DNA from: an uncultured Spirochaetales bacterium
Lineage (GTDB): Bacteria; Spirochaetota; Spirochaetia; SPDA01; CAYXSD01
Assembly: GCA_964466335.1 (NCBI GenBank)
Contig: CAYXSD010000003.1
Coordinates: 37,450-98,432, forward strand
Direction: 5' to 3'
DNA: 60,983 nucleotides
The first letter of the stretch is position 1. The number at the start of each line of letters is the position of its first letter. The position numbers and the translations under genes are program-made. The notes beneath the pieces were generated by a model. That model was not told the DNA's origin. It saw only the letters and a program-made list of their open reading frames with translations, and made no database searches. Below, piece by piece: positions 1 through 56,668 of this stretch.

Positions 1-3000
1 AGGGAAATAAAAAACCGGTACCCCTTTGTGGAAACAAAGCCGGAACTCTACGGTCCGTATAGAGAGACAAGAGAGAGCCGGGTGGAAGACCTTCTCACCA
101 TCCGTGTGCTGGTACCGGTGGAGGGGTACTCCCTGGAGCCCAACCTTATTCCCGGATCTGTGTCGGTAAAACGAAATGGGCGGAAGGCAACTGATTTCGA
201 GGTAAACTACGAATCCGGACAGGTTAGTTTTTTAGGCTACATCCATCCAAATGATCGAATAGAAATATCCTACCAGACGGTGGGGACGTCTAAAGGGGGC
301 GACATTGTCTTCGGTTTCGGTAACCGTTTTCATTTAGGCCCGAATCTCTTTCTCGATGCCGCCGCAGGTCTGCGCTGGAACATTCTCTCCGGCACCTACT
401 CCACCGAGGAGCGGCAGCATCCAGGTTCCGTGCTGGCCACGGCGGCACTTGACTACAGCACAGAGTCCTTAAAAGCACGTTTGGATACAGGGCTCTCCAT
501 TTCCACGCCTGACACTACCGGCCGCTTCCGCGTCCTGGGGATGGAATCTCAGGGACTGAAAGTGCCGATTTCGGACAGCTCCATCTTCCCGGCTTCTCCT
601 TCATCAATAACAGGCGCGATCTTCGCCCGTAATGTCCGAGGCAAGCTTATCTACAAAGACTACCGCTCCTACTCCCCGCTGGGAGGGGCGACCTTAAACG
701 CTTACACATGGGATCCCCCGGATGATCAGATTTATCCTTACCAAACAGGCAGCCGGCCGGGCCCCTACACCGCTCTCCCGGACACTTCTATTATCGATGG
801 CGAGGTAATGGTACTAGAATACGATTTGTCCGCCAATGAATGGGCCGGGGCCTTCCTGCCCGTCATACCGGGAGAAGAGGGAGTGGACCTTTCAGGGTTC
901 GATTCCCTTACCTTCTACTGGAAGTCCCTGGATGAAACGGGAACGGTGGACCATCACCTCCATATCGGGGCGGTAAGCGAAGACTTAGACGGTGACGGTA
1001 ATATTGACCGGGAGAATTCCGTCTACTCCCGCGGCTTTGATTTTAACGATTCCGCCAATGGAGCTGTCCTCCTCGTCGGCGGAGGCCCGGACCTTACCGG
1101 CAACCGCAGCCTGGAGAGCGAGGACTTCAACGACAACGGCATCCTCGATGGCGACGAAGATGATTTTACGGTCTCGGACGCAATACCCGTAACACCTGAG
1201 GAACAGTGGAAGCGAGTTACCATTGATTTCAGTGAGGCGGACAAGGAAAAGCTCATTTCCTCCAGGGGACTGCGACTCTACATCGAAGAAACCGCCGGGG
1301 CATCCGCTTCGGGAAGGCTTATCGTAAGCGGGTTTACCTTCCAGGGTTCTCCTATGGTGTTGGATGAAACTCCCACAGGGAGCATTGAGGAAACACAGGA
1401 TCTCATCGTCATCCGCGAAATATCCGAGGGCTTTAGCCTCAACCAGCCTCCTGAGCTTCTTACCAGTGTTTATCCCGAAGTCCAGGAGAATTTTCACCCC
1501 CAGGACACGGAGCAGCAGGTCCTGGAAGTAAATTGGGATTCCTCCGGAGGAACAACAAACACTTTACTTCTCATAAAAGGCTACACCTCCCCGGTGCCGG
1601 CTTCCCAATACCGTAAACTCTCCATGTATCTCCGCGTGCCGACCCTCTCAAACCCCGGTGCAACCACCATGACAGTCTCTCTGACCGGTTCCGATGGGGA
1701 GGGCATTAAAGCGGCCTTTACCCCGCCTCAGTTCGACGATTGGAGAAAACTAACGATTAACCTGGACAGCCGGGAAGTAACCCTGGGAGGTGAGACCCTA
1801 TCGGGAAGCACTGTCACCTATACTGGAACTAAAGGCACCCTCTCTCTCTTCTCCATTAGAATGGACGGATCTAATTCCGGGACAATATATATCGATGAAG
1901 TCCACTGCGAAGACTCTTTGGTGAATCTCGGATTCGGGGCCGCCGGTTCGGTGGAGTACAAACGACCGGGAAAACTTCTGTACACTCCAGAATTGGAAAT
2001 TCTTTCGGATATTCGTATCTTCCAAGAGGCATCCTTCTCCACCGAGGACTTTGCCGCGGGCTACCTCGACCAGGGCGGGCCCCTTACCACCCGCTCCTAT
2101 ACCGAGTTGGAAGGCATCCTTCTCTACACTCGTCTTCGTATGGAGCTTGGTATTCTCTATGCTGAACCGGACCTCTTCCTGTCCGGCGGACACTCTCTGA
2201 CAATTCCTGCTTTTCCCTTTCCGGTCACCTTCACCGACTCTTACAGCCAACGGGACGACCCAGGCGGAATAACCATGTCCAGGAGCAATCTAATCGGCAT
2301 TAATATACCGGGCGGAAACATAGTAGAGTTCACCCAAGAGTCCAGTCTTCTTACCTCAACATTGAACCAGGCATGGGAACTAAAGTACTCCACCGATTGG
2401 GAGGTTCCCTTCTCCATATCGCTTATAGGCTCCCTGGGAACAGCAAATAAAAACTGGCCTCTATTAGCGGAGAATTACTTTGCAAACTGGATCTTGGGTT
2501 ACAGCCTCTTCGCGCCGGTCAAAATCGACAAGTTTAGGGAAAGGAGGGGAAATACACTCTATTCTCTTTCCCTTACCACTCTACCTGTGGGAGCCTCTCT
2601 ATCTTTCGATCTCGGCTACTCAGTCGCGGGAGAACAGGAGCGGGAACACTCTTCCAAGGGGGCTATCGATGTATCCATCCCTTTACAATTCCTTCAAGAA
2701 ACACCAGCCGCATGGAGTCTTACCCCGGGGTATCGGCGGTCCTTTTCTTATACTCGCGCGGCCGAGGCCCCGGGGACATTTGGAGATGATTTTTACCTCC
2801 TCTACTCCGGGTTCGGAGTCCAAGAATACATTTACAACACATGGCCGATGGCAGAGCTCTTCTCCCAAAGGACGGAAGACCTATTTATCTCCTCCAGTCA
2901 GGGATACGAAGCAGCACACTTCACCCCTTCTTTCTATATGGATTACAACCGTCGATACGGCTCCAATCTCTACGACCTTTTCCTCCCCTCCACAGTTTCC

Positions 3001-3615
3001 CTCACCTTTTCCAGATCGCTCCGGAGAAACGCCTCCAGTATAGAGGATACCTACCGCTGGGGGACTGAGCTGCGAACTTCGGCGGTTAATCTCTTTGGCA
3101 GCCAGGGGGCCTATTCAATAACCCCAGTCTTCGATTCAGATGAGTACAGCACATCCATTGGGCTCGATGTTACTTCAACGGACACTTTCTTCTTCAAAGA
3201 AGTTGAGTTGATCCTTCAACACTATCTTGCCTTCTACAAGGGGAATACCCATGAACTGAGTGTGGAAAATCGATTCAGCCAAACCTGGGCATCCCACATA
3301 TACGCGACAAATAGAACCGACATTGGTTTTCTTTGGTCCATTTTTCCTGAGGCCCCCATTGTATTTCCCATTTTCAAAAAAATCTTGAACAAGGGATACA
3401 TACGAAATGGTGAGTACCTCGATTGGGTCCTGGAACCCTACACGGAGAATAAAGACAAATATGGTTTCAGCCTTCTCCTGCGGCACGAGACCGGACTTGT
3501 TTTTCCTGATATTGGGGATATGACCGCGCATATTTCCGTAGGTTTCGACCGCATGGTAGAAGAGCTCTCCATTCTTGGGCTTCAAATAGGCATTTCCGCA
3601 CGTTTCCAATTTTAA
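1..3615 (+). CDS. SprA/Sov-like large outer-membrane protein, 5'-truncated (frame +1 is open from base 1)
   Basis: No stop in frame from position 1. Ordered motifs resemble T9SS SprA: IPGSVSVKRNG..DFEVNYESGQVSFL, RGKLIY, RPGPY, EWAG..LTFYW, LHIGAVSEDLDGDG, SEDFNDNG, WKRVTID, EQQVL, SQYRKLSMYLR. The C-terminus is beta-rich and ends ARFQF. The coding call is secure; the product call is from remembered motifs. Confidence 0.6.
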   Translation, partial: REIKNRYPFVETKPELYGPYRETRESRVEDLLTIRVLVPVEGYSLEPNLIPGSVSVKRNGRKATDFEVNYESGQVSFLGYIHPNDRIEISYQTVGTSKGGDIVFGFGNRFHLGPNLFLDAAAGLRWNILSGTYSTEERQHPGSVLATAALDYSTESLKARLDTGLSISTPDTTGRFRVLGMESQGLKVPISDSSIFPASPSSITGAIFARNVRGKLIYKDYRSYSPLGGATLNAYTWDPPDDQIYPYQTGSRPGPYTALPDTSIIDGEVMVLEYDLSANEWAGAFLPVIPGEEGVDLSGFDSLTFYWKSLDETGTVDHHLHIGAVSEDLDGDGNIDRENSVYSRGFDFNDSANGAVLLVGGGPDLTGNRSLESEDFNDNGILDGDEDDFTVSDAIPVTPEEQWKRVTIDFSEADKEKLISSRGLRLYIEETAGASASGRLIVSGFTFQGSPMVLDETPTGSIEETQDLIVIREISEGFSLNQPPELLTSVYPEVQENFHPQDTEQQVLEVNWDSSGGTTNTLLLIKGYTSPVPASQYRKLSMYLRVPTLSNPGATTMTVSLTGSDGEGIKAAFTPPQFDDWRKLTINLDSREVTLGGETLSGSTVTYTGTKGTLSLFSIRMDGSNSGTIYIDEVHCEDSLVNLGFGAAGSVEYKRPGKLLYTPELEILSDIRIFQEASFSTEDFAAGYLDQGGPLTTRSYTELEGILLYTRLRMELGILYAEPDLFLSGGHSLTIPAFPFPVTFTDSYSQRDDPGGITMSRSNLIGINIPGGNIVEFTQESSLLTSTLNQAWELKYSTDWEVPFSISLIGSLGTANKNWPLLAENYFANWILGYSLFAPVKIDKFRERRGNTLYSLSLTTLPVGASLSFDLGYSVAGEQEREHSSKGAIDVSIPLQFLQETPAAWSLTPGYRRSFSYTRAAEAPGTFGDDFYLLYSGFGVQEYIYNTWPMAELFSQRTEDLFISSSQGYEAAHFTPSFYMDYNRRYGSNLYDLFLPSTVSLTFSRSLRRNASSIEDTYRWGTELRTSAVNLFGSQGAYSITPVFDSDEYSTSIGLDVTSTDTFFFKEVELILQHYLAFYKGNTHELSVENRFSQTWASHIYATNRTDIGFLWSIFPEAPIVFPIFKKILNKGYIRNGEYLDWVLEPYTENKDKYGFSLLLRHETGLVFPDIGDMTAHISVGFDRMVEELSILGLQIGISARFQF

Positions 3616-3726: not shown

Positions 3727-5181
3727 ATGATTAGGCTTATTAAACATATTTGTATTCTTTGTTGTTTCATCCTTTTAGTAACGGCCCTTCCCTCCTTTTC
3801 CCAGGAAATTGACACAGGCGAAGGGGAGAATGAGTCCATTGAGGAAGAAAGCAGGACTGATGAAACCCCAGATGAAATGGAAGAAGATGAGAAAGGCCCG
3901 GAATTTGCCTTTGGTCTCGATCTTGTATTGGGTGCGGAAATATTCAATATTCCCGATTCGGAGGAACAGATTACCTGGCAGAAACTGGCACTCCTTCCGG
4001 ATTTTTCCATTGGTAAGTTTGGAATCGGTATTGATCTGACACTTCATTTTCATTTTACCGGCGGTCCCGGAAATGACCAGTTCGAAGTTCGAAAGGAGGA
4101 CTGGGTACCCGATGAAAATACCTCGTTCTTGGAACTCTATCTTCCAAAGTTTCGTTATATCAGATACGGCGAAAAGGGCGACCCCCTCTATGTAAAACTA
4201 GGCTCTATAGACGACGCTGTCCTGGGAAACGGGTTTATAATGAACAACTACTCCAACACCCTCTTCCTCCCGGAAAAAAGGATTTTCGGTTTGAGCTTCG
4301 ATTTCGATGGAAAAGTTTTCTCCTTTCCCTACTTGGGGATAGAGTATTTTATCGGAAACCTCGCTGTTTTCGACATAATAGGGGGACGAATCTATACAAG
4401 GCCCTTTGCCGGGTTAGAAGTCCCGGTTATTAAGGAGCTTCAGTTAGGCGCTAGTGTTGCTGGAGACAGAGCGCCCTACCATCACTCTGAATTGGACAAT
4501 CCGGAAGCCTCTGTCCTTATTTTCGGATTTGATACTCGAATACCAATTCTATCGGGAGATATCTTTTCATTAGCCGCCTTCGGCGATATTGTGTTTCAAC
4601 CGGGTACTAGAGGCGGAATGATCGGCCTTGGTGGAAGACTATTTTCGATTGTTACCTATGGCGCCCAGATCCGCTTCTTGGGAGAGAATTTTCTCCCCAC
4701 CTATTTCGATGCCACCTATGACCTTTTCCGAGTGGATAAATACCTCATTACCACAGGAAGCGGGCAGACCATACCGCCATATACCGGATGGTACGGTTCA
4801 CTGGGTTTGTCCTTACTGGAAGACCAACTCGTCTTCCGTGTCAGCATGGACGGACCCTTTGGGTATCCCGTTGCTCACAGCATAAACGGCATTCCACCGG
4901 AAGATAATTACGTTAACTACCCCCACTTACGGGCAATCTTTCTCCTTAATCAGGATGTTATTCCAAGTTTCTTTTTCGATATAAGTTACGACAAGAAACT
5001 CATTCGAAACTTTGCCGACTTAGTCAGCCCGGAACAATCTGTTATTACCGCCAAGCTCAACTACAAAGCCGGCGCAGCGGTTATTTCCTTTATCTACTCT
5101 CTTCGTTACAATCCGGATGCCCCGGGAGAGAACTCCTGGGAAACCACTTCCGGACTGCAGACGAGTATCAGTCTTTTTTAA
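3727..5181 (+). CDS. Predicted outer-membrane beta-barrel protein, unknown family
   Basis: N-terminal signal peptide, acidic linker, amphipathic beta-strands and terminal ...TSISLF. RBS GAGGGGG upstream. Paralogous to the C-terminal domain of the next gene. Confidence 0.65.
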   Translation: MIRLIKHICILCCFILLVTALPSFSQEIDTGEGENESIEEESRTDETPDEMEEDEKGPEFAFGLDLVLGAEIFNIPDSEEQITWQKLALLPDFSIGKFGIGIDLTLHFHFTGGPGNDQFEVRKEDWVPDENTSFLELYLPKFRYIRYGEKGDPLYVKLGSIDDAVLGNGFIMNNYSNTLFLPEKRIFGLSFDFDGKVFSFPYLGIEYFIGNLAVFDIIGGRIYTRPFAGLEVPVIKELQLGASVAGDRAPYHHSELDNPEASVLIFGFDTRIPILSGDIFSLAAFGDIVFQPGTRGGMIGLGGRLFSIVTYGAQIRFLGENFLPTYFDATYDLFRVDKYLITTGSGQTIPPYTGWYGSLGLSLLEDQLVFRVSMDGPFGYPVAHSINGIPPEDNYVNYPHLRAIFLLNQDVIPSFFFDISYDKKLIRNFADLVSPEQSVITAKLNYKAGAAVISFIYSLRYNPDAPGENSWETTSGLQTSISLF

Positions 5182-5193
5182 GGAGGACCTCAT

Positions 5194-7455
5194 ATGAAAA
5201 GAATGGTAACGTACATACTGTGCCTCAGTCTCTTCGTGTCGGCACTTGGTTTTGCTCAAACAAGTGAGGCCCCCTACGTGGTATTGGAATACTATACCAA
5301 TGAAAATGAACTTAGAATTCTAACCTCCCAAGGTGAAGAACTTTCTCCCTTTTTTGGAATGGATATCGCTCCCGGAGACACCATAATAACCGGCGCCTCC
5401 CTTGCGGAGCTTCGTTTGGAACCGAACGGTACCATCATAAAGATCTCTCGAAACACGGAATTCTTAATTGAAACCCTCCAGGGTCCCGAGTACAACGTAA
5501 ACGCCTTTTCCATGCTTAGTGGTAAAATCAGGGCCATTGCCGCGAAGAGCGGAGGAAAAGATAATTACTCCTTTGTTACACCCAGTGCGGTGTGCGGTGT
5601 GCGGGGGACAGATGTTTGTCTCTATGCCGAACCGGAAGAGATAGATACCGCCGCTGTTTTAGAGGGAGAGGTTAATTTCATCAATGTTAATACCGGAGAA
5701 AGTCTAACCCTTACAGAGAGAACAAAGGCGAATGTCTTCGCCGATACCTTTTCAGCTCAACCTCTTTCGGAAGAGGAAATGCTCACCCTCTTCAGCGATT
5801 TGGAATTCGAACGTCTTAAACCCAGCAATGTGCCGGGCAATGAAAACAGGGAAGACCCCATAAAAGAGCTGAGAGAGAAAAAGGAGCAGGAGACACTCAC
5901 CGAGGAAAAACAGAAAGAAGAAGAAGAGGATGATGATAATGATGAACAGCCGAAAGCTGAACAACCTGAACTAACTAAAGAGGATACCGAAAAAGAAGAA
6001 AAACCCAAAGAACCGGATTTTTTCGATAATCTCCTTAAATTTCTCGGATTTGAAATCGGAACCCTTACCGTTGACAACAGCACCTACGCCAAAGCGGTAG
6101 TACAACCCAAATTCGAAATTGGCGATTTCCGATTAGGGCTCTATCTGCCGGTGATCTATCAGGACGATTTATTCTCTCCCCAGGACTGGTACCATCCCAA
6201 GGGTAACAACGAGTGGTCCTTCGGTACGGATCAATCAGGCACCCTGAATATTCTCTATGATATTGCGGGAGACCTCTTGCTCAAAATCAAATACATGGAA
6301 TACGGAGAGCAGCGGGACCCGTTCTTTTTTACATTGGGGAATATATCGAGTATTACCATCGGACATGGCATTATTATGCGTAACTACGGAAATGATTCCG
6401 ATTTTCCAGCAGTAAGAAGAATCGGGTTAAACCTTGGGGTTACCACTTCTTTCTTCGGCTTTGAAGGCGTCGTAAACGATTTTGCCGACTTAGAGATTTT
6501 CGGCGGGCGGATCTTTTTTAAACCAATTGGAGACAGTTTTCCTATGGCCATTGGTGTTTCTTCCGTACTCGATCTCTATCCTTCAATGGGAATACCCCGA
6601 AACGAAGGCGAGACCCTTTCCACCCTATACGGGGACCCCATCTTCATTAACGGCGGACTGGATATCGATTTTCCCATTCTGGAAAGCGATACTTTCAGTC
6701 TCGTTTTTTTCGGTGATATAGCCGCTATGCTGCCCTACTTCAGAGAAAATGAGAGTGCCTTTAACATTCGCCGGGGATTTGCCTTAGAAGCCCTCTTTCC
6801 AGGAGGGGTTGTAAATCTGTCCAAACTGAGAAACTACGGATGGTCCGCGGGGGCCTTCGGGAATATCTTTATTGTTGATTGGAGACTGGAGTACCGAAAC
6901 TATCGCGGGACTTTTAAGCCTTCCTTCTTCAATAACACCTATTCCAGGGTTCGAGGACAGTATGTTTTGAACACCGCGGCATATCTTGCTGATCCGGACG
7001 CTTCAGAGTGGGACAAACAGACTATGGGTATATATGGAGAAGCAGGGTTTACCATCGGCGATATATTCACTTTCACCGGCGGATACTTTTGGCCTTGGCA
7101 GGTAGGAAGCTCCGGGGTTGAAGCATTAGAGGAAGATTATTTTCTCCTTAAGCTTCGACTCCATCCCGATGTAATTCCTGTTGTCGGTATCCACGGCTCT
7201 ATCTCTTACGAAAGAACAGGATTTATACCTACCATTTTGCAGTCCGAGGGCAGTGAGGACCTGCTCCTTTTCGATGCCTATACCGTTGTAAAGGGTGAAG
7301 TGGTCATACCTTTAGGACCCAGCTTGGACCTTGCCACAGTTATTGCCACAAACGCTGTATATAACAGCGATGGAACTGTAAGGCGGGACCCGAACAACCC
7401 GACGATGATAAAAATCGCTCCCTCGGTTACTATTGAAACCCGAGTGAGTTTTTAA
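5194..7455 (+). CDS. FecR-domain protein fused to a predicted beta-barrel
   Basis: Signal peptide; FecR-like segment (GDTIITG..AELRL..GTIIKIS.NT, TPSAVCGVRGT, VLEGEV); acidic/charged linker; barrel domain ending ETRVSF. RBS AAGGAGG. Confidence 0.7.
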   Translation: MKRMVTYILCLSLFVSALGFAQTSEAPYVVLEYYTNENELRILTSQGEELSPFFGMDIAPGDTIITGASLAELRLEPNGTIIKISRNTEFLIETLQGPEYNVNAFSMLSGKIRAIAAKSGGKDNYSFVTPSAVCGVRGTDVCLYAEPEEIDTAAVLEGEVNFINVNTGESLTLTERTKANVFADTFSAQPLSEEEMLTLFSDLEFERLKPSNVPGNENREDPIKELREKKEQETLTEEKQKEEEEDDDNDEQPKAEQPELTKEDTEKEEKPKEPDFFDNLLKFLGFEIGTLTVDNSTYAKAVVQPKFEIGDFRLGLYLPVIYQDDLFSPQDWYHPKGNNEWSFGTDQSGTLNILYDIAGDLLLKIKYMEYGEQRDPFFFTLGNISSITIGHGIIMRNYGNDSDFPAVRRIGLNLGVTTSFFGFEGVVNDFADLEIFGGRIFFKPIGDSFPMAIGVSSVLDLYPSMGIPRNEGETLSTLYGDPIFINGGLDIDFPILESDTFSLVFFGDIAAMLPYFRENESAFNIRRGFALEALFPGGVVNLSKLRNYGWSAGAFGNIFIVDWRLEYRNYRGTFKPSFFNNTYSRVRGQYVLNTAAYLADPDASEWDKQTMGIYGEAGFTIGDIFTFTGGYFWPWQVGSSGVEALEEDYFLLKLRLHPDVIPVVGIHGSISYERTGFIPTILQSEGSEDLLLFDAYTVVKGEVVIPLGPSLDLATVIATNAVYNSDGTVRRDPNNPTMIKIAPSVTIETRVSF

Positions 7456-12142: not shown

Positions 12143-12159
12143 ACCTATTGGAGATTAAT

Positions 12160-13539
12160 ATGTCAACGGTCCTTATTCTAATTATAATACTCGGTTCCGG
12201 AGCCGGCATTTTAACCTTTTTTATTATAAAAACTGTGCTTCAGCCCAAAAGGGTCGCCACTCTGGCGAATTTACTAAAACAGGGTAAATACTCAGCAGTC
12301 GTACGAACGGCAAAGCAGATCCTGGCAAAAGAACCGCGTAATTCGGAAGCCCACTATCTTATTGGAAAGGCTTATATGGGGGACAACAAACCTGAATTGG
12401 CCCTAATGGAGCTGCAAACAGTAAATGAAATTGGAGATTTCGGGGGAGCTTGCCCTGAAATTGAATTTCGAGAGACCATTGCCGGTCTATTCGAACGTTT
12501 TAAACAACCCGAAGAAGCCTTGAAGGAGTACCTTCTTCTATTAAAGAAGGACCCGGGGAACCCTGAATATTACTTTAAATCCGGTGAATTCTTCGAGGCG
12601 AGGGACAAATCGGAAAAGGCGGCGAACTATTACAGAAAAACAATCGAATTAGACCCGCGCTATGGGATGGCCCACTTCCGACTAGGACAGATTCTTTACC
12701 GGGCAAAAAAACCGGTGGAGGCCAGGGCTGAATTGGAAACGGCTATTAAAATCCTTCCTGAGAACTATAATGCGTATTTCTACCTTGGTAGATTAGTAAA
12801 GGAAAGCCACGACTACGCCACGGCCCTACACCTCTTTGAAAAGGCCCAGCGGGACCCGGAGCTAAAGGTAAAAGCTCTTGTGGAACGCGGCGGGTGCTAC
12901 ATGAATATGAAAAGTTTCGACAGCGCCATTAGTGAACTCGAACGTGCCCTTAAACTCTCTAACAACGACAGCTCTCCGGAAACCCTCTACGGACGTTACT
13001 TTCTCGCTGCCTGCTATGAGAATAAACGGCAAATAGATAAGGCAATAGAACAGTGGGAAGCAATTTATAAAAAAAAGTCGTCCTTCCGGGACGTAGCCGA
13101 AAAGCTCAGTCAGTACCAGGAACTCAGACAGGATGACCGCGTGAAAGATTATTTAACCGCAGGCATGGAAGAGTTTTATCAGATCTGCAAAGACATTACC
13201 GTAGCGCTTAACCTGGGTGTTCGTGATTTGACAAATATACCTAATGGATGCCAGATCGTCGCTGTAGAAGCCGAATCGAAGAAGTGGCTTAACGCGAGGA
13301 AGATGCCCACACTCCTTTGGTTTCTTCGTATACCGGACATTATTCCAGAATCGACAATACGAAACCTCCACGAAGAAATGAAAAAATTAAATGTTACCAG
13401 AGGAGCACTGATTGCGAGTTCTAACTTTCATCGTAAAGCTGTGGAATACGCGGAAACCAGGCCAATCAATCTTTTTAACCAAGAAAAATTACAAAAATTA
13501 CTGGAGAAGGCGGACTCCCTTCAGAAGTCTTCACGATAA
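12160..13539 (+). CDS. Membrane-anchored TPR protein with C-terminal degenerate Mrr-like (restriction endonuclease fold) domain
   Basis: ATG at 12160 after GGAG; N-terminal TM; multiple TPRs. The C-terminal GALIASSNF..A..YAETRPINLFNQEKL resembles the end of Mrr_cat. Confidence 0.75.
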   Translation: MSTVLILIIILGSGAGILTFFIIKTVLQPKRVATLANLLKQGKYSAVVRTAKQILAKEPRNSEAHYLIGKAYMGDNKPELALMELQTVNEIGDFGGACPEIEFRETIAGLFERFKQPEEALKEYLLLLKKDPGNPEYYFKSGEFFEARDKSEKAANYYRKTIELDPRYGMAHFRLGQILYRAKKPVEARAELETAIKILPENYNAYFYLGRLVKESHDYATALHLFEKAQRDPELKVKALVERGGCYMNMKSFDSAISELERALKLSNNDSSPETLYGRYFLAACYENKRQIDKAIEQWEAIYKKKSSFRDVAEKLSQYQELRQDDRVKDYLTAGMEEFYQICKDITVALNLGVRDLTNIPNGCQIVAVEAESKKWLNARKMPTLLWFLRIPDIIPESTIRNLHEEMKKLNVTRGALIASSNFHRKAVEYAETRPINLFNQEKLQKLLEKADSLQKSSR

Positions 13540-42575: not shown

Positions 42576-42611
42576 AGACACTAGTGAAAAGTACTTTTTC
42601 AGGAGCAAATA

Positions 42612-45503
42612 ATGGCCTCAGAAGAAAAAAACAACGCCGCAACCAACAATGACGTATCCCTGGATGAATTCGATTTCGAGGACTTCGAACCCGAAACAAT
42701 GGATAACTCTGAGGAAGATATTGAGCAGTACGGTGTCTGGGTAAAGTCAGGTCCCGAAGATATTGATATGGTTACCCCTCCTTCTTCTGAAGAAATTGAA
42801 GCGGATTTTGACACCTTGGAAAACGCGACCATCCTTACTGAAGAAGAAGAGGCCCTTCTTGCCGATCTTGAAGAGGAAGCACCGGATGAGGAAGAAGTCA
42901 TTAGTGATATAGAATCCATGGAAGTACCGAAAGAAGAGGAAACAACAGCTGAAAAAGAAGAATTTGATCTTGCAGGACCGGATTCTATTGAAGGGGACAA
43001 AGATGCGGAGGATGAATTAGAAAATCTCGATGAATTTGAAATAGAAGACTTTGATGGTTCTCCGGATATAGAATCCGACATGGAGGAACTCTCCCTGGAA
43101 GATGAATCAACTGAAAGAACGGAGGAAGAAGAACTTACATTGGGAAGTTCTGAAGACGAACTTCATATTCCCGAGGAAATTGACTCTGTTTCCGAATCTG
43201 CCGATGAAGACTTAGAAGACCTTGACGATTTTGATATCCCCGACCTTGAGGGAGAAGAGGATATCGATATAGGACCCACAGATACTGAGACCCTTGAAAC
43301 ATCTTTCACATCGGAGGAAGAGGACGACCTCATTGAAATCCCCCTTGGAGAGGCTAAAGACGAGGAAAATGATGAATTAGAGCCTACTGAATTATCAGAA
43401 GAGTCAGAAGAAGCACCTGCGGAAGAAGTTCAGAAAGCCGAAGATAGTTTAGAAGAGATTGATATTGAAGAATTGCAAGAATCTGATTACGGCGAGGAAC
43501 TCCCTGAACTTGCTATAGATGATTTGGAAGAAGAGAATGCTCCTCTTCTCGAAATTGAAGATGAAGACGAAGCTATAGAGGATGATCTATCTTCCTCCTT
43601 AGAAGAAGATATCGCAGTTGAAGAAATCGAAGAACTTGAAGGAGATGAAGATATTTTATCGGAGTCTTCAGATGATGATGAAATGATATCCCCCATACCT
43701 GAGGCCTCCATTGAGGAGTCTACTATCGAAGAAGAACCATCAGAACCTGATAGCGCCCCCATACCCGGCGAATCATCTTCTGATAATTCTTCAGGAATCC
43801 TTACAAAAATCGAAGCAGAGCTTCATTCTATAAAAGATGAACTCTCCTCTTTAAAATCTGAGCTCTCGACACTTCGAGATATAAAAACAAAAGATACTGT
43901 TGAAAAAGAACATAAGGTTGAAGATACGGAAGAAGAAGGTGCGGGAGGATTCTTTGAGGAGGAAGAAGATGAAACCATTGCTCTCACCGGAGATGAATTA
44001 GATAATATACTCAACACCGCTGATGTAAAAGAAGAAACTGGAGAAGCAGAATCTCTCGACGAAGATGAAGAAACTCTCACCGATGATGAGCTCGATAATA
44101 TTTTAGAAACCGCAGATTTTGATCAAAAAGAAGGAAAATCAGAAGACGTTGAAGAAGATTCAACAATAACAGATCAAACCAAGCATGATGCAGAAGAAAC
44201 TGATGAGGATGAAACGCTAACCTTAGATGGACTTAACAACATCATTCAAACTTCGGATTTCGATGAACAACACGCGGCTTTAGAAGCACCTGAAGAACTT
44301 GAAGATGAAATAACACTTGAAGGACCTGAAGAACTCTCAGATAGGGAAGATATTATCGACCTCGAAGATAATGAGGAAATTAAAGAGCCGGGACCTTCTT
44401 TTGAAGATGTGGAAGAAAATAACAATCTTATTGATGCTATCGATGAAGTTTCTTCTGAAGCTGAGGAACAAACACCTGAACCGGAGGACCATGTTTCAGT
44501 AGAAACGACTGAGGATGAAGATACTTTGGAATTTGAAACTGATATTTCAGATACTGACATCTCAGACACTGCTACATCCGATGAAGAGGAAGGACTTGAT
44601 ATAATTACCGAACATGAAGAACCTCTTAAAGAAGATGTAGAGGATTACGAACTTTCCATTGAAGACGAAGAAGCACAAGGAGAGGATGAAAGAGGCACCG
44701 ATGAATTATCTCTCTCAGATGAACATGAATTAATAATCGATGATGCAGCATACAACGATAGTTCTGAGTCATCCACAGAGCAGGAAGAAACGCTTTACTC
44801 TGATTTGAATGAGGGGGATGAAATTGAAATTGATGTACCTGAAATCGAGGAGATAGAGACTGATCAGATACCAGATGAACCTGTTTCTCAAGAACCGGAA
44901 TTAGATATTGAAGAACCAAAATCGGAAGACCAACCTTCAGAAGAAGTAGAACTTTCTTATGAAGAAGAAATAGTACCTGAAGAAGAGATAGTACCTGGTA
45001 TTGAAGAAGAAGGTGAGTTAGAAGAAGACCTTCCTGAAGATTTTCAGATAGAAGAAGACATAGAAGAGACCGCCATAGATGAACCTCTTGAAGAAATTGC
45101 TATAGAAGAACCTATAGAAGATGAAGAAGAGATCTTCCAAGAAGAAGATCATAAAGATTCAGAAGGAATAACCATAGATTCTACAGAAATTATTGAAGAG
45201 ACAAGCATAGAAGAACCCCTGTCGGAAGTTACTGTTTCTGAGGAACCAATAGATACAATTGAAACTGAATCTATGGATGAATCAGTAGAGATAGAAGATA
45301 CCTATAAAAGTTCCAAACCAGCGGAGGATACAGAAACAAAAGAATCTCAGATACCAGAAGAACTGAAATCTGAAATTAAATCTGTGCTTAGTTATATGGA
45401 CCAGTTATTAGAGTCCCTTCCTGAAGAGAAAATTGAAGAATTTGCAAAATCCGAGCACTTTGAAGTCTATAAAAAATTATTTGAAGAACTTGGTTTAAAA
45501 TAA
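42612..45503 (+). CDS. Very acidic, largely disordered protein with helical islands
   Basis: D/E-dominated sequence; EQYGVWVKSGP near the N-terminus; central coiled coil; three LTxDxLxNI repeats; folded C-terminal EIKSVLSYMDQLLESLPEEKIEEFA..YKKLFEELG. RBS AGGAG. Confidence 0.85.
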   Translation: MASEEKNNAATNNDVSLDEFDFEDFEPETMDNSEEDIEQYGVWVKSGPEDIDMVTPPSSEEIEADFDTLENATILTEEEEALLADLEEEAPDEEEVISDIESMEVPKEEETTAEKEEFDLAGPDSIEGDKDAEDELENLDEFEIEDFDGSPDIESDMEELSLEDESTERTEEEELTLGSSEDELHIPEEIDSVSESADEDLEDLDDFDIPDLEGEEDIDIGPTDTETLETSFTSEEEDDLIEIPLGEAKDEENDELEPTELSEESEEAPAEEVQKAEDSLEEIDIEELQESDYGEELPELAIDDLEEENAPLLEIEDEDEAIEDDLSSSLEEDIAVEEIEELEGDEDILSESSDDDEMISPIPEASIEESTIEEEPSEPDSAPIPGESSSDNSSGILTKIEAELHSIKDELSSLKSELSTLRDIKTKDTVEKEHKVEDTEEEGAGGFFEEEEDETIALTGDELDNILNTADVKEETGEAESLDEDEETLTDDELDNILETADFDQKEGKSEDVEEDSTITDQTKHDAEETDEDETLTLDGLNNIIQTSDFDEQHAALEAPEELEDEITLEGPEELSDREDIIDLEDNEEIKEPGPSFEDVEENNNLIDAIDEVSSEAEEQTPEPEDHVSVETTEDEDTLEFETDISDTDISDTATSDEEEGLDIITEHEEPLKEDVEDYELSIEDEEAQGEDERGTDELSLSDEHELIIDDAAYNDSSESSTEQEETLYSDLNEGDEIEIDVPEIEEIETDQIPDEPVSQEPELDIEEPKSEDQPSEEVELSYEEEIVPEEEIVPGIEEEGELEEDLPEDFQIEEDIEETAIDEPLEEIAIEEPIEDEEEIFQEEDHKDSEGITIDSTEIIEETSIEEPLSEVTVSEEPIDTIETESMDESVEIEDTYKSSKPAEDTETKESQIPEELKSEIKSVLSYMDQLLESLPEEKIEEFAKSEHFEVYKKLFEELGLK

Positions 45504-45507
45504 TAAA

Positions 45508-46638
45508 ATGGGATTGTTAGACATAGCACTTACTCTACACGATGATGACGCCCCAATAAATAAGGGACTCTTCTATAAGGCTTCACAGGTCAAAATAAAT
45601 CCTTTAGAACTAATCGAAAACACTATTTTACTCCAAAAATCTGCCATAACATTTACTGGAGATGGCCATAGAGAGACTGAGGATAGTACCGAAACCAATC
45701 AAAATGAATTCTTTATCAATCGCGAATTATTTTCGACAAAATTGGAAGAGTTCCCATCGAATGCGGATACACCTTTATATTTGTTTTCATTCCTTAAGAA
45801 GGAATTGGGTATTGAGAAAGGATCCCTTTTACTTCTCGATCCTGAAAAAAAAGTATATTTTCCTTGGGCTATTACCGGATATGATGAAACGACCAATCAT
45901 AGATTACGCATTCCCTACGAATTATTACAATTAATACTTACTACAGAAGAAGAGCCTGTTTTTATTCTTTCCACTCTTAATAATGATACTAAACAAGAAA
46001 AAATAAAAAAGTATTTCAGTTTGAGAGAGTTTTCCGTACTTGAACGTCTACTTTTTTTGCCTTTAGAGATTAACGATGAAGTTTTCGGTCTGCTTATAGC
46101 TACATCTGCAAAATCTTTTTCTTCTGAAGACGAACTTCTCAATCTACTCAAAGAGAATCAGGAAAAAATATCAAACATTATCTATCAAAGTAGAGCTGAC
46201 CATCTTTTTTCCACTTCGGTTTCCTCATTAAAAGAAAAAGATGAGGCCATTACTACAGTATCCCATTTAATAGCTACCCTGCCGCATAATTCTACAGGCT
46301 TAGTACTTTTCGTATTCGATTTAAACAAAATTATTAAACAAATTCTTAAAAACAACGAAGATGCAGATTCTTTAAGAATTCGCGAAGATGTGCTTAGGAT
46401 CTTAACACCCATGATCAGTGAAAATGGGTCTATCGTTACTTTGGATACTCTTCAATTACTCATTGTTATACCAAAATCCCGATTACGGCGAAATGATCTT
46501 TTTGCTCATCAAATAGCTTCAGCTATAAAGGGATACTTTTCTCTTCCAAATAGTGCCCCAAATCCTATTTCACATATAAAAGCTTTTCCGGATGATGGGA
46601 CAAACGCTGAAGAACTTCTCTCGGATATTTTAAACTAA
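45508..46638 (+). CDS. GAF-like plus degenerate GGDEF-like domain protein
   Basis: GSLLLLDPEKKVYFPWAITG and LLFLPLEINDEVFGLLI (GAF-like); C-terminal FPDDGTNAEELL. Confidence 0.55.
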   Translation: MGLLDIALTLHDDDAPINKGLFYKASQVKINPLELIENTILLQKSAITFTGDGHRETEDSTETNQNEFFINRELFSTKLEEFPSNADTPLYLFSFLKKELGIEKGSLLLLDPEKKVYFPWAITGYDETTNHRLRIPYELLQLILTTEEEPVFILSTLNNDTKQEKIKKYFSLREFSVLERLLFLPLEINDEVFGLLIATSAKSFSSEDELLNLLKENQEKISNIIYQSRADHLFSTSVSSLKEKDEAITTVSHLIATLPHNSTGLVLFVFDLNKIIKQILKNNEDADSLRIREDVLRILTPMISENGSIVTLDTLQLLIVIPKSRLRRNDLFAHQIASAIKGYFSLPNSAPNPISHIKAFPDDGTNAEELLSDILN

Positions 46639-46642
46639 TTAT

Positions 46643-48265
46643 ATGAAAGAAGTTTCACTTCGTACTGCCCGTAACGGAAGCACAATAGCTTTTTTAAACG
46701 GCGTAAGACTTCAATCTCCATACGATCCTCAAAAAGAAGCTGAAAAATTTATTTATCTTCAAACCTCTGGAACTGTACCTAATACAATTATTTTTTTTGG
46801 TTGTTCATTAGGATACCTTCCTTTAACTGCTCGAAAATTATTTCCCCAGACAAAGATTATCGCTTTATTTCTTACTGACATTTTTTATGAGCAATCAAAA
46901 AATATTCTTCATAACAAAAATATCATTTCTTGGTCCGAAAAATCCCATGGTTTGCTTACGTCTTTTTTATCTGAACACTTGTTTGAAACTGATATTCCAC
47001 ATCTTCTTTTTCTTTCGTGGCCTGCTGCCACAGAGGCTTTACCCAACTATTTTAGGAATATTTCTTCAGTTGTAAAAAGTATAATACAACAACATAACGG
47101 GAGTTTAAAAACGACCAAGGTTTTTGGTAAGCGCTGGATTAAGAATGTACTTAACAATTTTATAAATAACCGAATGTATGCGGGTTTATCTGCCATTGAA
47201 AAACCTATACTTGTTACCGCTTCCGGCCCATCCCTCAATGAAACATTGCCCTTAGTAATATCTCATCGAAAAAAATTTTGTCTTATTGCTCTACCCTCCT
47301 CTCTTAAAGCATTACAATATTATTCCATCTATCCTGATTTTGTTATCACTACAGATCCAGGTTTTTGGGCAGGCCAACATCTATATTCTCTCCATCCTTC
47401 TTCTGTATTAGTAGCACCTCTTTCCGCACAACTTCACCATTTTAACAATGATAATCCTATTGCCTTAATTTCTGATGGTGTTCCGGGCGAAAAGAACTGT
47501 ATATTTCATGAGAGACTCCCATACATTTCTCTTCCTCCTAACGGCACTGTTGCGGGAACCGCGTTAGAATTTTCCTTTTACTATACGAATAACTCTATTT
47601 TTTTCCTTGGCTTCGATCTAGCAGTACGAGATATACAAGGGCATGTAATTCCTCATCCTTTTGATTTACACTTGTGTCTTTCTACATACCGGTACCATCC
47701 ACTTCAATATGAGTATTTTGAACGGGCGCTTTTATTCTATCCGGATCGCATGAAATCGAAATACTATAGAACTTCTAAAAGCCTTGAAACGTATGCTAAT
47801 TGGTTTCGTAGGAATTCGAATCGTTGGAAAAAACGTATTTACAGGGTCGGATTTTCTCCAGTTTCGCTGCCGAATATTCCTTTTATTGATAATAAAGAAT
47901 TTACAGAGATACTCTCTGATATTCCTGTACCGACAAAAGAGGAACAAAATTGCAAGAAAGAGTACAGTATTTTTCCACTATCTTCCAAACGAAATCAAAG
48001 AGTGGAATTTGTAACCTCGCTTCTTAATTCGTGGATTAAAAAAATTGAAAATGAAAAAAATATTTTTTTTTACAAAGAACAGTATCTTCCCATAGACCCA
48101 ATAATTAAAGAATTATTTAAGTATATAGTAACTCAAGATTATATAGATTCCAAAAATCTTCTCTTAGTAAGAGGTAGAAAAAAATGGGAAGACTATTTTT
48201 TTTCTTCCCTTAGCCGTCTTAAAATGGAACTAACTTCATTAAGGGGTATGATTACGGATGTATAA
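46643..48265 (+). CDS. Motility accessory factor (Maf/DUF115, MptE-like) 1
   Basis: LQSPYDPQKEA, TASGPSL, TTDPG, GTVAGTAL, FLGFDL. Confidence 0.8.
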   Translation: MKEVSLRTARNGSTIAFLNGVRLQSPYDPQKEAEKFIYLQTSGTVPNTIIFFGCSLGYLPLTARKLFPQTKIIALFLTDIFYEQSKNILHNKNIISWSEKSHGLLTSFLSEHLFETDIPHLLFLSWPAATEALPNYFRNISSVVKSIIQQHNGSLKTTKVFGKRWIKNVLNNFINNRMYAGLSAIEKPILVTASGPSLNETLPLVISHRKKFCLIALPSSLKALQYYSIYPDFVITTDPGFWAGQHLYSLHPSSVLVAPLSAQLHHFNNDNPIALISDGVPGEKNCIFHERLPYISLPPNGTVAGTALEFSFYYTNNSIFFLGFDLAVRDIQGHVIPHPFDLHLCLSTYRYHPLQYEYFERALLFYPDRMKSKYYRTSKSLETYANWFRRNSNRWKKRIYRVGFSPVSLPNIPFIDNKEFTEILSDIPVPTKEEQNCKKEYSIFPLSSKRNQRVEFVTSLLNSWIKKIENEKNIFFYKEQYLPIDPIIKELFKYIVTQDYIDSKNLLLVRGRKKWEDYFFSSLSRLKMELTSLRGMITDV

Positions 48266-55595: not shown

Positions 55596-55606
55596 TTATT
55601 CCTCCA

Positions 55607-56668
55607 TTATATATTACAGGACATTAGGGTATCTCTCACCACCTGTGCCCTCACATAGTCTATATATTTACTATCGGCACCCATTTCTTTACTGCTTATC
55701 CTCTTTTGTATGTGCGACTTCTGAGTTCTAAACAGAAGAGATGTCAGCAGCTCAATCGGCACTTTCAGCCAACCCAGGGCCGATCCCAATCTAAGAGAAG
55801 AAATAAGCTCTATTGCCTCTCGAGCGGGCAGATAACGGCAATATTTTAAGATTCCCACCGCACGGAATATTCGATCTTCCGTATCCACCCTTCTCTTTTC
55901 AATCATCTCTTCTCTTGCCCTTCTCTCATAATGTACTATCTGTTTGGTAATATTTTCAAGTTTTTCTATAATTTCTTTTTCAGAAATCCCGATTGTAGTT
56001 TGACTAGAGATCTGGTACATATCCCCTAAGGAATTCTCAGCATCACTAAAGAACCCCTTCACTGTCAGCCCAACCTGTACAACAGCTTTGAATGTTTTCT
56101 CAATCAACCCTGATTCTACCAGCGCGGGTAGATGAAGCATTACAGAACTTCTTAAACCGGTACCACTATTAGTTACTTCCGTATTTAGATACCCCAATTC
56201 AAAATTTACCGCGTAATCCATGTGTTCTTCCAATTCTCTATCTAAGGTGTCCAATTCCTCATATCCTCTTTGGAAACTTCCTCCCCCGTGTATTGCTGTC
56301 AACCTAAGATGGTCGATTTCATTTATCAACACCGAAAGTGTTTGATTGTCATTGAAAATTATTGCATTGTCCGATTTAAGCGAATACTCCTGACTTATTA
56401 TGTTTCTCTCTAACAGCATTTTTCTCTGGGAGGGCGAAAGTTGAGATAGAAGAAAGCGGTTATACAAGTTTTCTTTTGATATTTTATCAAATATCTCTAT
56501 TACTTCGTCCCTGAGTAGACGCTCTTCCTCTTTTTTCATCATTCCGGGAAAAGGATATCCTTGAAGATTTCTAGAGAGTCGTATCCTCGAAGCTAAGGCA
56601 ACATCGTTATCTTGTCCTGCTTCAAAAAACCAGCCTGTACCGTCTCCCAGGACATCATTGCTCACCAT
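55607..56668 (-). CDS. mcsB: McsB-family ATP:guanido phosphotransferase, catalytic residues altered
   Basis: SRIRLSRNL, GTGLRSSVMLHLPAL, YQIS; located between mcsA and clpC. Confidence 0.88.
   Translation of the reverse strand: MVSNDVLGDGTGWFFEAGQDNDVALASRIRLSRNLQGYPFPGMMKKEEERLLRDEVIEIFDKISKENLYNRFLLSQLSPSQRKMLLERNIISQEYSLKSDNAIIFNDNQTLSVLINEIDHLRLTAIHGGGSFQRGYEELDTLDRELEEHMDYAVNFELGYLNTEVTNSGTGLRSSVMLHLPALVESGLIEKTFKAVVQVGLTVKGFFSDAENSLGDMYQISSQTTIGISEKEIIEKLENITKQIVHYERRAREEMIEKRRVDTEDRIFRAVGILKYCRYLPAREAIELISSLRLGSALGWLKVPIELLTSLLFRTQKSHIQKRISSKEMGADSKYIDYVRAQVVRDTLMSCNI

What the first reader, a model, noticed from the sequence alone, without database searches (positions are those of the whole stretch)
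1..3615. SprA/Sov (type IX secretion translocon)-like protein in an apparent spirochete
Seen: an ORF of more than 1200 aa with a beta-rich, Phe-terminated C-terminus and these motifs in order: IPGSVSVKRNG..DFEVNYESGQVSFL..IEIS; RGKLIY; RPGPY; EWAG..LTFYW; LHIGAVSEDLDGDG; SEDFNDNG; WKRVTID; RGLRLYI; EQQVL; SQYRKLSMYLR. From memory, Bacteroidota SprA has the same ordered series (GSVxV..DYTVNY..GRV.IL; RAKLAWY; RGPYN; NWGG..YIEFW; NLGNISED.LKDG; EDINRD; W.QFRI; NEQSL; QYK.LKMF). SprA is the 36-strand translocon of T9SS, which is regarded as FCB-restricted. Inference: this is a compact SprA homolog, and the two SED motifs only ~50 aa apart suggest the internal duplication is missing. No porK/L/M/N motor genes are in the window.
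Basis: partly seen in the sequence, partly recalled or inferred. Interest (0 to 1): 0.85.

Follow-up and report, generated by a model that had tools for sequence, protein, structure and literature searches.

The report
SprA-like giant outer-membrane barrel, spirochaete
This is the last three quarters of a 1,603-residue spirochaete outer-membrane protein whose predicted fold most resembles SprA, the giant secretion pore thought to be confined to Bacteroidota and their relatives, so spirochaetes may have an unrecognised export channel.

Summary
Frame 1 of window 1-3615 is open from the first base and encodes 1,204 residues ending in ...ARFQF. All 13 quoted motifs are present, in order. A near-identical contig (L054) supplies the 5' end: the gene encodes 1,603 aa with a signal peptide.

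- Two separate AlphaFold2 models, one of the window part and one of the N-terminal 700 aa of a 96%-identical homolog, each hit only F. johnsoniae SprA strongly in the PDB (Foldseek E 7e-28 and 1.6e-16). The next barrel, LptD, scores about 1e-4 to 1e-3.
- The SprA model TIGR04189 is the top NCBIfam hit. For a family consensus it gives E 5.9e-7, with two matches in the same order along both sequences. The score is 27 bits against a cut-off of 200, so this is not a family member by the curated test.
- No Pfam SprA_N match was found.

The family has about 960 clusters at 50% identity. All sampled members are Spirochaetota, about 1,600 aa long, and named 'hypothetical' or, in Treponema, hidden inside ORFs named 'DNA polymerase IV'. 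No T9SS genes lie in the window. Two paralogous Phe-terminated secreted proteins follow the gene in most loci.

Function as a translocon is inferred, not shown. The 'missing internal duplication' claim was not tested.

The parts
1..3615 (+). 3' three quarters (residues 400-1603, plus stop) of a 1,603-aa SprA-like outer-membrane protein gene. The 5' 1,197 nt lie outside the window.
   Evidence: Open frame and translation. Full gene recovered from the near-identical contig at L054:5078-9889. Foldseek top hits are SprA.
142..273 (+). Segment PGSVSVKRNG...DFEVNYESGQVSFL...IEISYQT, which aligns to SprA family model TIGR04189 positions 603-651.
   Evidence: Window aa 48-91, E 0.043. The same region of the family consensus gives E 1.4e-4 as an isolated segment.
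301..507 (+). Four long predicted beta-strands (model residues 97-165), probably barrel strands that precede the central domains.
   Evidence: DSSP of the AF2 model, pLDDT 62-83. The same strands appear in the independent N-terminal model at residues 501-570.
748..1365 (+). First central beta-sandwich domain (EWAG...LTFYW...WKRVTID...RGLRLYI...), interrupted by a low-confidence acidic insertion.
   Evidence: AF2 strands at model residues 252-450. Conserved W/G/D columns in family alignments.
976..1164 (+). Insertion carrying two DxDxDG-type (calcium-binding-like) loops: SEDLDGDGNID and SEDFNDNGILDGDE.
   Evidence: The sequence itself. E728, D729, L730, D731, D776 and D784 are invariant or nearly so in the family. 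pLDDT < 50 in the model. Calcium binding is inferred from the motif only.
1504..1914 (+). Second central beta-sandwich domain, CBM11-like jelly roll (EQQVLEVNW...SQYRKLSMYLR...WRKLTINL...GTIYIDEVH).
   Evidence: The 120-sequence family profile hits CBM11 of endoglucanase H (2lro/1v0a), E 0.03, at profile positions 901-1033. Foldseek hits 6r31_A (CBM11) at 4.4e-3.
1876..3606 (+). C-terminal array of 26 long antiparallel beta-strands (barrel wall), ending in a BAM-type beta-signal ...LQIGISARFQF.
   Evidence: DSSP strands E622-E1198 of the AF2 model, mean pLDDT ~85. C-terminal Phe is invariant in the family.
3727..5181 (+). 484-aa secreted protein ending in Phe, with no known family. Candidate partner encoded 111 nt downstream.
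   Evidence: Translation. No Pfam or PDB match. No terminator or promoter consensus in the spacer. Conserved directly downstream in 18 of 42 related genome loci and in L005, L008, L009 and L010.
5194..7455 (+). 753-aa secreted protein with an N-terminal FecR domain, a charged linker and a C-terminal domain paralogous to the 484-aa protein. It ends in Phe. Candidate partner.
   Evidence: Pfam FecR 1.6e-8. LipL45-like 3.8e-7. BLASTP against the 484-aa protein gives E 3e-22. It co-occurs with the 484-aa gene.

Best explanation
[quoted passage not shown] Proposed architecture:
- About 8 N-terminal strands, 4 middle strands and 26 C-terminal strands build one very large barrel wall.
- Two central beta-sandwich domains sit over one mouth of the barrel as a cap, as in SprA. 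One carries two DxDxDG loops. The other is CBM11-like.

Proposed function: a wide, gated conduit that lets folded proteins or other large molecules cross the spirochaetal outer membrane. It is not part of a canonical T9SS. It probably works with spirochaete-specific partners, the best candidates being the two paralogous Phe-terminated proteins encoded just downstream. One of these has a periplasmic FecR-type domain. They could play the gate or carrier roles that Plug and PorV play for SprA.

Shown: the ORF, the signal peptide and C-terminal Phe, the predicted strand array, SprA as the best structural neighbour of both halves, the weak same-order SprA profile matches, restriction to Spirochaetota in the sample, conserved synteny, and absence of T9SS genes nearby.

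Inferred: membrane location, cap position, channel function, cargo, partners and energy source.
For: Structure:
- The AF2 model of window aa 5-1204 has mean pLDDT 73, and ~85 over the C-terminal barrel region.
- Foldseek against the PDB puts four SprA chains on top (E 7e-28 to 2e-21, probability 1.0, ~1,700 aligned columns). Next come a PNGase (3e-7), ApoB100 (7.5e-5) and LptD (4e-4).
- An independent model of residues 1-700 of the 96%-identical P0001, mostly outside the window, again hits only SprA strongly (1.6e-16, 2.8e-16, 1.2e-13, 1.5e-5). The next hit is at 1.7e-3 with probability 0.10.

Sequence:
- TIGR04189 is the only or top NCBIfam hit for the window (E 0.043) and for P0001 (0.0054). 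Three of 19 members hit it, best E 4.8e-6.
- For the 135-sequence consensus it gives E 5.9e-7, with two stretches in the same order along both sequences.
- Signal peptide, and a C-terminal ...F invariant across the family.

Family and context:
- 964 representative clusters at E<=1e-3. The best 150 are ~1,500-1,720 aa or fragments.
- All 42 genome loci are Spirochaetota.
- The chromosomal position is conserved between the TilS/ComFB genes and MutL, which suggests a core envelope function.
- The downstream paralog pair is present in 18 of 42 loci.
- Published SprA is a 36-strand capped barrel with a ~7 nm lumen and a lateral opening, gated by PorV or Plug (PMC10994853; PMC7463736).
Against: - No experiment and no cargo are known.
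- Sequence similarity to SprA is marginal: 10-13% identity in the structural alignments, and 27 bits against a 200-bit cut-off.
- HMMER profiles of the family do not find F. johnsoniae SprA in the PDB at E<=10.
- Pfam SprA_N is not matched.
- Global TM-scores are low (0.31-0.37 normalised to the query). The protein had to be modelled in two pieces, so barrel closure, strand number, cap position and a lateral opening could not be checked.
- No PorV, PorK/L/M/N, SprE, PorU or CTD-cargo families are in the 61-kb window. T9SS is reported only from Bacteroidetes/FCB (PMC4793230).
- The downstream pair is missing next to the gene in some lineages.
Confidence: 0.6

Rival explanations
1. It is the translocon of a genuine but divergent T9SS. 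The other parts (PorV/PorQ-like carrier, motor, ring, sortase, CTD-tagged cargo) would be encoded elsewhere in the genome, too diverged or too scattered to be seen from this window.
For: sprA is also a scattered 'loner' gene in Bacteroidetes T9SS models (PMC4793230). A Brachyspira protein is classed as PorV/PorQ family, a 14-strand FadL-like barrel (bioRxiv 10.1101/2025.01.03.631275), so PorV-like proteins exist in spirochaetes. The structural match to SprA is strong.
Against: Systematic surveys found T9SS in no phylum but Bacteroidetes. No T9SS Pfam family is found in 61 kb here or in about 20 kb around nine related loci. The protein is one third shorter than SprA.
Confidence: 0.12
2. It is a giant outer-membrane pore for uptake or binding of large substrates such as glycans, not for secretion. 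The central CBM-like domains would capture carbohydrate at the cell surface.
For: A CBM11-like jelly-roll domain: HMM E 0.03 and Foldseek 6r31_A 4.4e-3, plus glycosidase-domain hits. Many free-living Spirochaetales are saccharolytic (general knowledge).
Against: The CBM similarity is weak, and jelly-roll domains are common scaffolds, so it says little about ligand. The gene sits among housekeeping genes, not in a polysaccharide-utilisation locus. The best overall match is a secretion translocon.
Confidence: 0.12
3. It is a structural or biogenesis component of the spirochaetal envelope (membrane tethering, lipid or lipoprotein handling) that merely shares ancestry with SprA.
For: Single gene in a conserved core-genome position next to mutL, tilS and other housekeeping genes across hundreds of lineages. 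LptD, a lipid-handling barrel, is the next-best barrel match.
Against: LptD matches are more than 20 orders of magnitude weaker than SprA matches. No LptD, Omp85 or AsmA family signal was found.
Confidence: 0.1
4. The resemblance to SprA is not homology. Any very large predicted beta-barrel would pick the largest solved barrel, and the profile hits are chance.
For: Low TM-scores and about 11% identity. Profile-to-sequence searches miss SprA.
Against: Other large barrels score far worse with the same query: LptD with 26 strands at 4e-4, SlpA at 3e-3. The N-terminal model, whose confident part is largely non-barrel, independently hits only SprA. TIGR04189 is the top hit among 18,950 models, at E 5.9e-7, with two stretches in the same order.
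Confidence: 0.06

Closest known systems
SprA/Sov, outer-membrane translocon of the type 9 secretion system (F. johnsoniae SprA, PDB 6H3I, 6H3J, 8GL6, 8GL8; NCBIfam TIGR04189)
   Same: It is the best and only strong structural neighbour of both halves of the protein. It shares a very large array of barrel strands split between the N- and C-terminal parts, with beta-sandwich domains inserted between them. The SprA family model gives weak matches in the same order along both sequences. Both have a signal peptide and a C-terminal aromatic residue.
   Different: - 1,603 aa, against ~2,300-2,400 aa (profile length 2,319; solved chains have 1,988-2,290 modelled residues).
- 27 bits against the 200-bit cut-off, and no Pfam SprA_N match.
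- Found in Spirochaetota, not Bacteroidota/FCB.
- No T9SS genes nearby.
- Different neighbours: two paralogous unknown secreted proteins, one with a FecR domain.
- Strand count, cap and lateral opening are unverified.
LptD (lipopolysaccharide transport barrel, 26 strands)
   Same: Large outer-membrane beta-barrel, and the second-best barrel class in Foldseek (E 4e-4 to 1e-2).
   Different: It scores more than 20 orders of magnitude worse than SprA. It is half the size, and there is no LptD family match. The N-terminal model matches LptD only at probability 0.10.
Deinococcus SlpA / SDBC (30-strand S-layer-anchoring barrel, PDB 8AE1, 7ZGX, 8AGD)
   Same: Another giant outer-membrane barrel outside Proteobacteria, with weak Foldseek hits (about 1e-3).
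   Different: Weak similarity only. SlpA is trimeric with SLH and coiled-coil parts that are absent here.
CBM11 carbohydrate-binding module (C. thermocellum endoglucanase H, PDB 1V0A, 2LRO, 6R31)
   Same: Window aa ~502-638 has a jelly-roll domain with weak profile similarity (E 0.03) and structural similarity (4.4e-3).
   Different: It is a domain-level resemblance only, and ligand-binding residues were not examined.

Membership tests
SprA/Sov T9SS translocon (TIGR04189; Pfam SprA_N PF14349) | Scores above the curated cut-off of the family model (TIGR04189, 200 bits) or matches Pfam SprA_N | tested here: not met
   Window fragment 10.9 bits. P0001 13.9 bits; 3 of 19 members hit, best E 4.8e-6. 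Family consensus 27 bits, E 5.9e-7. No PF14349 hit for the window or for 19 members at E<=10.
SprA/Sov T9SS translocon | Fold most similar to solved SprA structures | tested here: met
   Foldseek against the PDB gives SprA chains at ranks 1-4 for both models: E 7e-28 to 2e-21 and 1.6e-16 to 1.5e-5. The next barrel, LptD, is at 4e-4 and 1.7e-3.
SprA/Sov T9SS translocon | Single 36-strand barrel, capped on the outside, with a lateral opening | tested here: inconclusive
   DSSP gives 26 long C-terminal strands plus 4 middle strands and about 8 N-terminal strands, roughly 38 candidates in all. The protein exceeds the 1,200-aa modelling limit and no coordinates were available, so closure, cap and lateral opening could not be examined.
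SprA/Sov T9SS translocon | Length of about 2,300-2,500 residues | tested here: not met
   1,603 aa. Family members are 1,500-1,720 aa.
SprA/Sov T9SS translocon | Co-occurs with T9SS core genes (PorK/L/M/N, PorV, PorT, PorU, SprE/PorW) | tested here: not met
   None is found in the 61-kb window or in about 16-20 kb around nine related loci. Whole genomes could not be searched with these tools, so absence from the genome is not shown.
SprA/Sov T9SS translocon | Genome encodes cargo with T9SS C-terminal domains (TIGR04183/TIGR04131) | not testable with these tools
   No such Pfam family appears among window genes, but the rest of the genome is not available.
SprA/Sov T9SS translocon | Taxonomic range: Bacteroidota / FCB superphylum | tested here: not met
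   All 42 genome loci and all named homologs are Spirochaetota: Spirochaetales, Marispirochaeta and Treponema.
BAM-dependent outer-membrane beta-barrel proteins (general class) | N-terminal signal peptide, beta-strand array, C-terminal beta-signal ending in an aromatic residue | tested here: met
   Signal peptide (M/V)RKETASILIFLILPFFSLFSQS. 26 consecutive long strands. C-terminal ...GISARFQF, with terminal F invariant in the family.
LptD | LptD family profile match and LptD as best structural neighbour | tested here: not met
   No LptD family hit in Pfam or NCBIfam. Foldseek E 4e-4 against 7e-28 for SprA.

The most novel reading that the evidence does not exclude
The protein is the core of a previously unrecognised spirochaete outer-membrane protein-export system. 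This system would share ancestry with the T9SS translocon but use its own partners and its own way of gating or energising. The candidate partners are the downstream paralog pair, one with a periplasmic FecR-type domain. If so, it would be a candidate route by which spirochaetes move folded proteins or surface lipoproteins across the outer membrane. It would also push the origin of SprA-type translocons outside the FCB lineage.
Probability: 0.3. Interest if true: 0.9.

Novelty: new variant of a known kind. Interest (0 to 1): 0.72.

Why it matters
SprA is the largest known single-chain outer-membrane barrel, and it defines the T9SS. That system is described as specific to Bacteroidota or the FCB superphylum (PMC4793230, PMC7463736, PMC10994853).

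This result points to a large, conserved SprA-like family in Spirochaetota: about 960 clusters at 50% identity, including Treponema. Its members are annotated only as 'hypothetical protein' or hidden inside ORFs named 'DNA polymerase IV'. Six full-text literature searches found no paper describing an SprA-like protein in spirochaetes or outside the FCB group.

If it is a translocon, three things follow:
- It gives a concrete, testable candidate for protein export across the spirochaetal outer membrane, which is poorly understood.
- It shows which parts of SprA are dispensable, since one third of the protein is missing.
- It allows the evolution of the T9SS translocon to be studied apart from its motor and ring.

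Tried and rejected
1. Direct sequence searches against PDB chains found no SprA at E<=10. I tried the window protein, a 19-sequence profile and a 120-sequence profile. Only a CBM11 domain appeared.
2. Pfam gave nothing for the window protein or for 19 family members.
3. A profile-profile (HHalign) test against a real SprA alignment could not be run, because no genuine SprA sequence could be obtained with the tools. The word-indexed search cannot reach it, and the tail of the 964 profile hits is not listed.
4. The first profile job failed because it had more than 1,200 positions. It was rerun with a trimmed alignment.
It was redone with 8 closer sequences. That run used only two N-terminal peptide patterns, so it samples one branch of the family.
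6. LptD, SlpA, usher and Omp85 identities were considered and rejected on Foldseek E-values and missing family hits.
7. The downstream 484-aa protein was tested as a PorV/FadL-like partner. It has no PDB or Pfam match, so its fold remains unknown.
8. An Rfam scan of the window found nothing.
9. Lauber et al. 2018 (PMC6927815) is not held, so SprA architecture was taken from PMC10994853 and PMC7463736.
Full report
**1. What is in the sequence**

Frame 1 of the + strand is open from the first base of the window to a stop at 3613-3615. That is 1,204 codons, ending ...LQIGISARFQF.

The gene is cut by the window edge. A look-up of the downstream 484-aa protein returned a 60-kb microbial-mat contig, L054 (JGI 3300012009 Ga0153773_1000303). 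It differs from the window at 3 of 15,000 aligned bases. There the gene is L054:5078-9889, with a GTG start and 1,603 aa. The window product equals residues 400-1603 exactly. The missing N-terminus begins with a typical signal peptide, (M)RKETASILIFLILPFFSLFSQS.

**2. The family**

- A word-indexed search found 23 relatives. The full-length ones are 1,509-1,666 aa, none has a Pfam domain, and all are unnamed or 'hypothetical protein' from Spirochaetes MAGs.
- A profile of nine trimmed members was read against 1.84 billion representative proteins. It found 964 clusters at E<=1e-3 and 567 at E<=1e-30. The best 150 are 1,500-1,720 aa or fragments.
- A scan of species-representative genomes returned 42 loci, all labelled Spirochaetota: Spirochaetales, Spirochaetaceae and Marispirochaeta, including Ca. 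Marispirochaeta associata JC231 and several complete MAG chromosomes. One sulfidic-cave MAG (L047) is labelled 'Borreliella garinii'.
- A divergent branch is in Treponema, including T. parvum.

**3. Is it SprA-like?**

*Sequence level*
- Pfam gives nothing.
- NCBIfam gives one hit for the window fragment, TIGR04189 'T9SS outer membrane translocon Sov/SprA'. It has E 0.043 and aligns residues 48-91 to model positions 603-651 of 2,319.
- Among 19 members, three hit this model, best E 4.8e-6.
- I built a 135-sequence alignment and took its HMM consensus. The consensus hits TIGR04189 as top family with E 5.9e-7 (27 bits).
- Scanned in 260-aa segments, two segments hit independently, in the same order along both sequences: consensus 124-223 to model 162-256 (E 0.0035), and 454-500 to model 603-652 (E 1.4e-4).
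- This is significant but far below the curated 200-bit cut-off.
- HMMER profiles of the family do not retrieve F. johnsoniae SprA from PDB sequences at E<=10.

*Structure level*
- AlphaFold2 on window residues 5-1204 with an 11-sequence alignment gave mean pLDDT 73, and about 85 over the last ~580 residues.
- Foldseek against the PDB ranked the four SprA entries first: 8gl8_A 7.1e-28, 6h3i_A 1.1e-26, 8gl6_A 1.1e-26 and 6h3j_A 2.4e-21. All have probability 1.0 and about 1,700 aligned columns.
- Next came a PNGase domain (3e-7), ApoB100 (7.5e-5), LptD (4e-4 and weaker) and SlpA (3e-3).
- A second, independent model covered residues 1-700 of the 96%-identical P0001, mostly outside the window. 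It is confident over residues 100-530. It again hit only SprA strongly (1.6e-16, 2.8e-16, 1.2e-13, 1.5e-5). The next hit was at 1.7e-3 with probability 0.10.
- Other large barrels score more than 20 orders of magnitude worse. So the match is not simply 'big barrel finds biggest barrel'.
- Global TM-scores are low (0.31-0.37). This is expected for partial models of a barrel that cannot close, but it means the global architecture is not verified.

**4. Anatomy (residues of the full protein; window residue = full residue minus 399)**

- After the signal peptide come about 8 strands (residues ~57-200).
- These are followed by small beta domains (~210-480), which include the TIGR04189-matching segment.
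- Four long strands follow at ~500-570.
- Next is a first beta-sandwich domain. It is interrupted by a low-confidence acidic insertion with two DxDxDG-type loops, SEDLDGDGNID and SEDFNDNGILDGDE. Their acidic residues are nearly invariant in the family.
- A second, CBM11-like jelly roll follows (profile E 0.03 against 2lro/1v0a; Foldseek 6r31_A).
- The protein ends with 26 consecutive long strands up to the terminal Phe.
- The sum is about 38 candidate barrel strands, compatible with an SprA-sized barrel (36 strands; PMC10994853; PMC7463736).
- If that holds, the protein is shorter than SprA through shorter extramembrane parts rather than a smaller barrel. I could not confirm this without a full-length model.
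That was not tested. On their own they read as two adjacent calcium-binding-type loops.

**5. Context**

The window holds housekeeping genes:
- MutL and TPR proteins;
- the glycine-cleavage system, RecJ, RecO, Lon, SHMT, IlvD and Maf/MptE-like genes;
- ClpC/McsB and LolCDE-like genes.

Around nine relatives the order is conserved: DUF1577/PilZ, aconitase, HD_assoc_2, TilS-like, ComFB, then DUF503, an Ion_trans channel and a ~310-aa unknown on the opposite strand, then the large gene, a ~450-484-aa unknown, a ~745-aa FecR-domain protein, MutL and TPR proteins.

The two downstream proteins are window 3727-5181 and 5194-7455.
- Both have signal peptides and end in Phe.
- They are paralogs of each other (BLASTP E 3e-22).
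- The larger one adds an N-terminal FecR/LipL45-like domain.
- They match no PDB or Pfam entry.
- They follow the large gene directly in 18 of 42 genome loci. In 7 loci MutL follows directly instead.
- The 111-nt spacer before the first of them has no terminator or promoter consensus, and has a good ribosome-binding site.

**6. Interpretation**

The best-supported reading is a Sec-exported, BAM-inserted giant outer-membrane barrel that shares ancestry with the T9SS translocon. SprA is a capped 36-strand barrel with a ~7-nm lumen and a lateral opening, alternately closed by the carrier PorV and by Plug. By analogy, I propose that the spirochaete protein is a gated conduit for folded proteins or other large molecules, working with lineage-specific partners. 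The downstream paralog pair are the obvious candidates.

The homology is reasonably secure, at about 0.85 in my judgement. The function is an inference.

Rivals:
- a genuine but scattered, divergent T9SS; a PorV/PorQ-family protein is reported in Brachyspira;
- a glycan-uptake pore, suggested by the CBM-like domain;
- an envelope-biogenesis role, suggested by the core-genome position;
- non-homology.

**7. Novelty**

T9SS and SprA are described as specific to Bacteroidetes/FCB (PMC4793230; PMC7463736; PMC10994853). Six full-text searches found no description of an SprA-like protein in spirochaetes or outside the FCB group.

I rate it a new variant of a known kind. It has the SprA fold but is one third shorter, lies in a different phylum, lacks T9SS context and has different neighbours.

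By the membership tests it is not a member of TIGR04189. What it works like remains open, and is testable.

Noticed in passing
window 3727-5181 and 5194-7455 (+): Two paralogous secreted proteins of 484 and 753 aa, both ending in Phe, with no known family (BLASTP E 3e-22 between them). The larger has an N-terminal FecR/LipL45-like domain and a charged linker. Both give weak hits to Leptospira 'ImpL63' (NF047543). They are conserved directly downstream of the SprA-like gene in 18 of 42 related genome loci.
   Followed up: partly
P0023, P0173-P0327 (Treponema proteins); junction in P0023 near residue 390-415: In Treponema the SprA-like protein is almost always called as one ~1,900-2,080-aa ORF, fused in frame behind a complete DNA polymerase IV (DinB) domain. 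There is no stop codon before the barrel protein's signal peptide. NCBI names these 'DNA polymerase IV' (e.g. Treponema parvum, 2,049 aa). A few relatives are unfused, and in L011 dinB is a separate gene 1.6 kb upstream. It is unknown whether one or two products are made.
   Followed up: partly
L054:2665-5038 (upstream of the window; minus strand): A conserved, divergently transcribed trio lies next to the gene: a ~318-aa unknown protein, a ~374-aa Ion_trans-family channel and DUF503. The 318-aa protein and the channel are present in the same loci that carry the downstream paralog pair. Both are absent where MutL follows the large gene directly.
   Followed up: partly
window ~42600-49925: A low-GC stretch (35-37%, against ~45% elsewhere) holds two unknown proteins with no Pfam match (963 aa at 42612-45503 and 376 aa at 45508-46638). 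They are followed by two Maf/MptE-like genes (46643-49925). This may be a flagellin-glycosylation island, possibly acquired horizontally.
   Followed up: no
L047 (DYOB01000037.1): A sulfidic-cave MAG labelled 'Borreliella garinii' carries a 25-26%-identical family member with the same downstream pair and MutL. The species label looks wrong for an environmental spirochaete.
   Followed up: no
window 53088-57185 (-): A ClpC-type ATPase, an McsB-like protein arginine kinase (ATP:guanido phosphotransferase) and a UVR-motif (McsA-like) protein lie together. This arrangement is best known from Firmicutes.
   Followed up: no
window 12148-13539 (+): A TPR protein with a C-terminal Mrr_cat (restriction-endonuclease-like) domain, conserved in the same position in related loci.
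   Followed up: no
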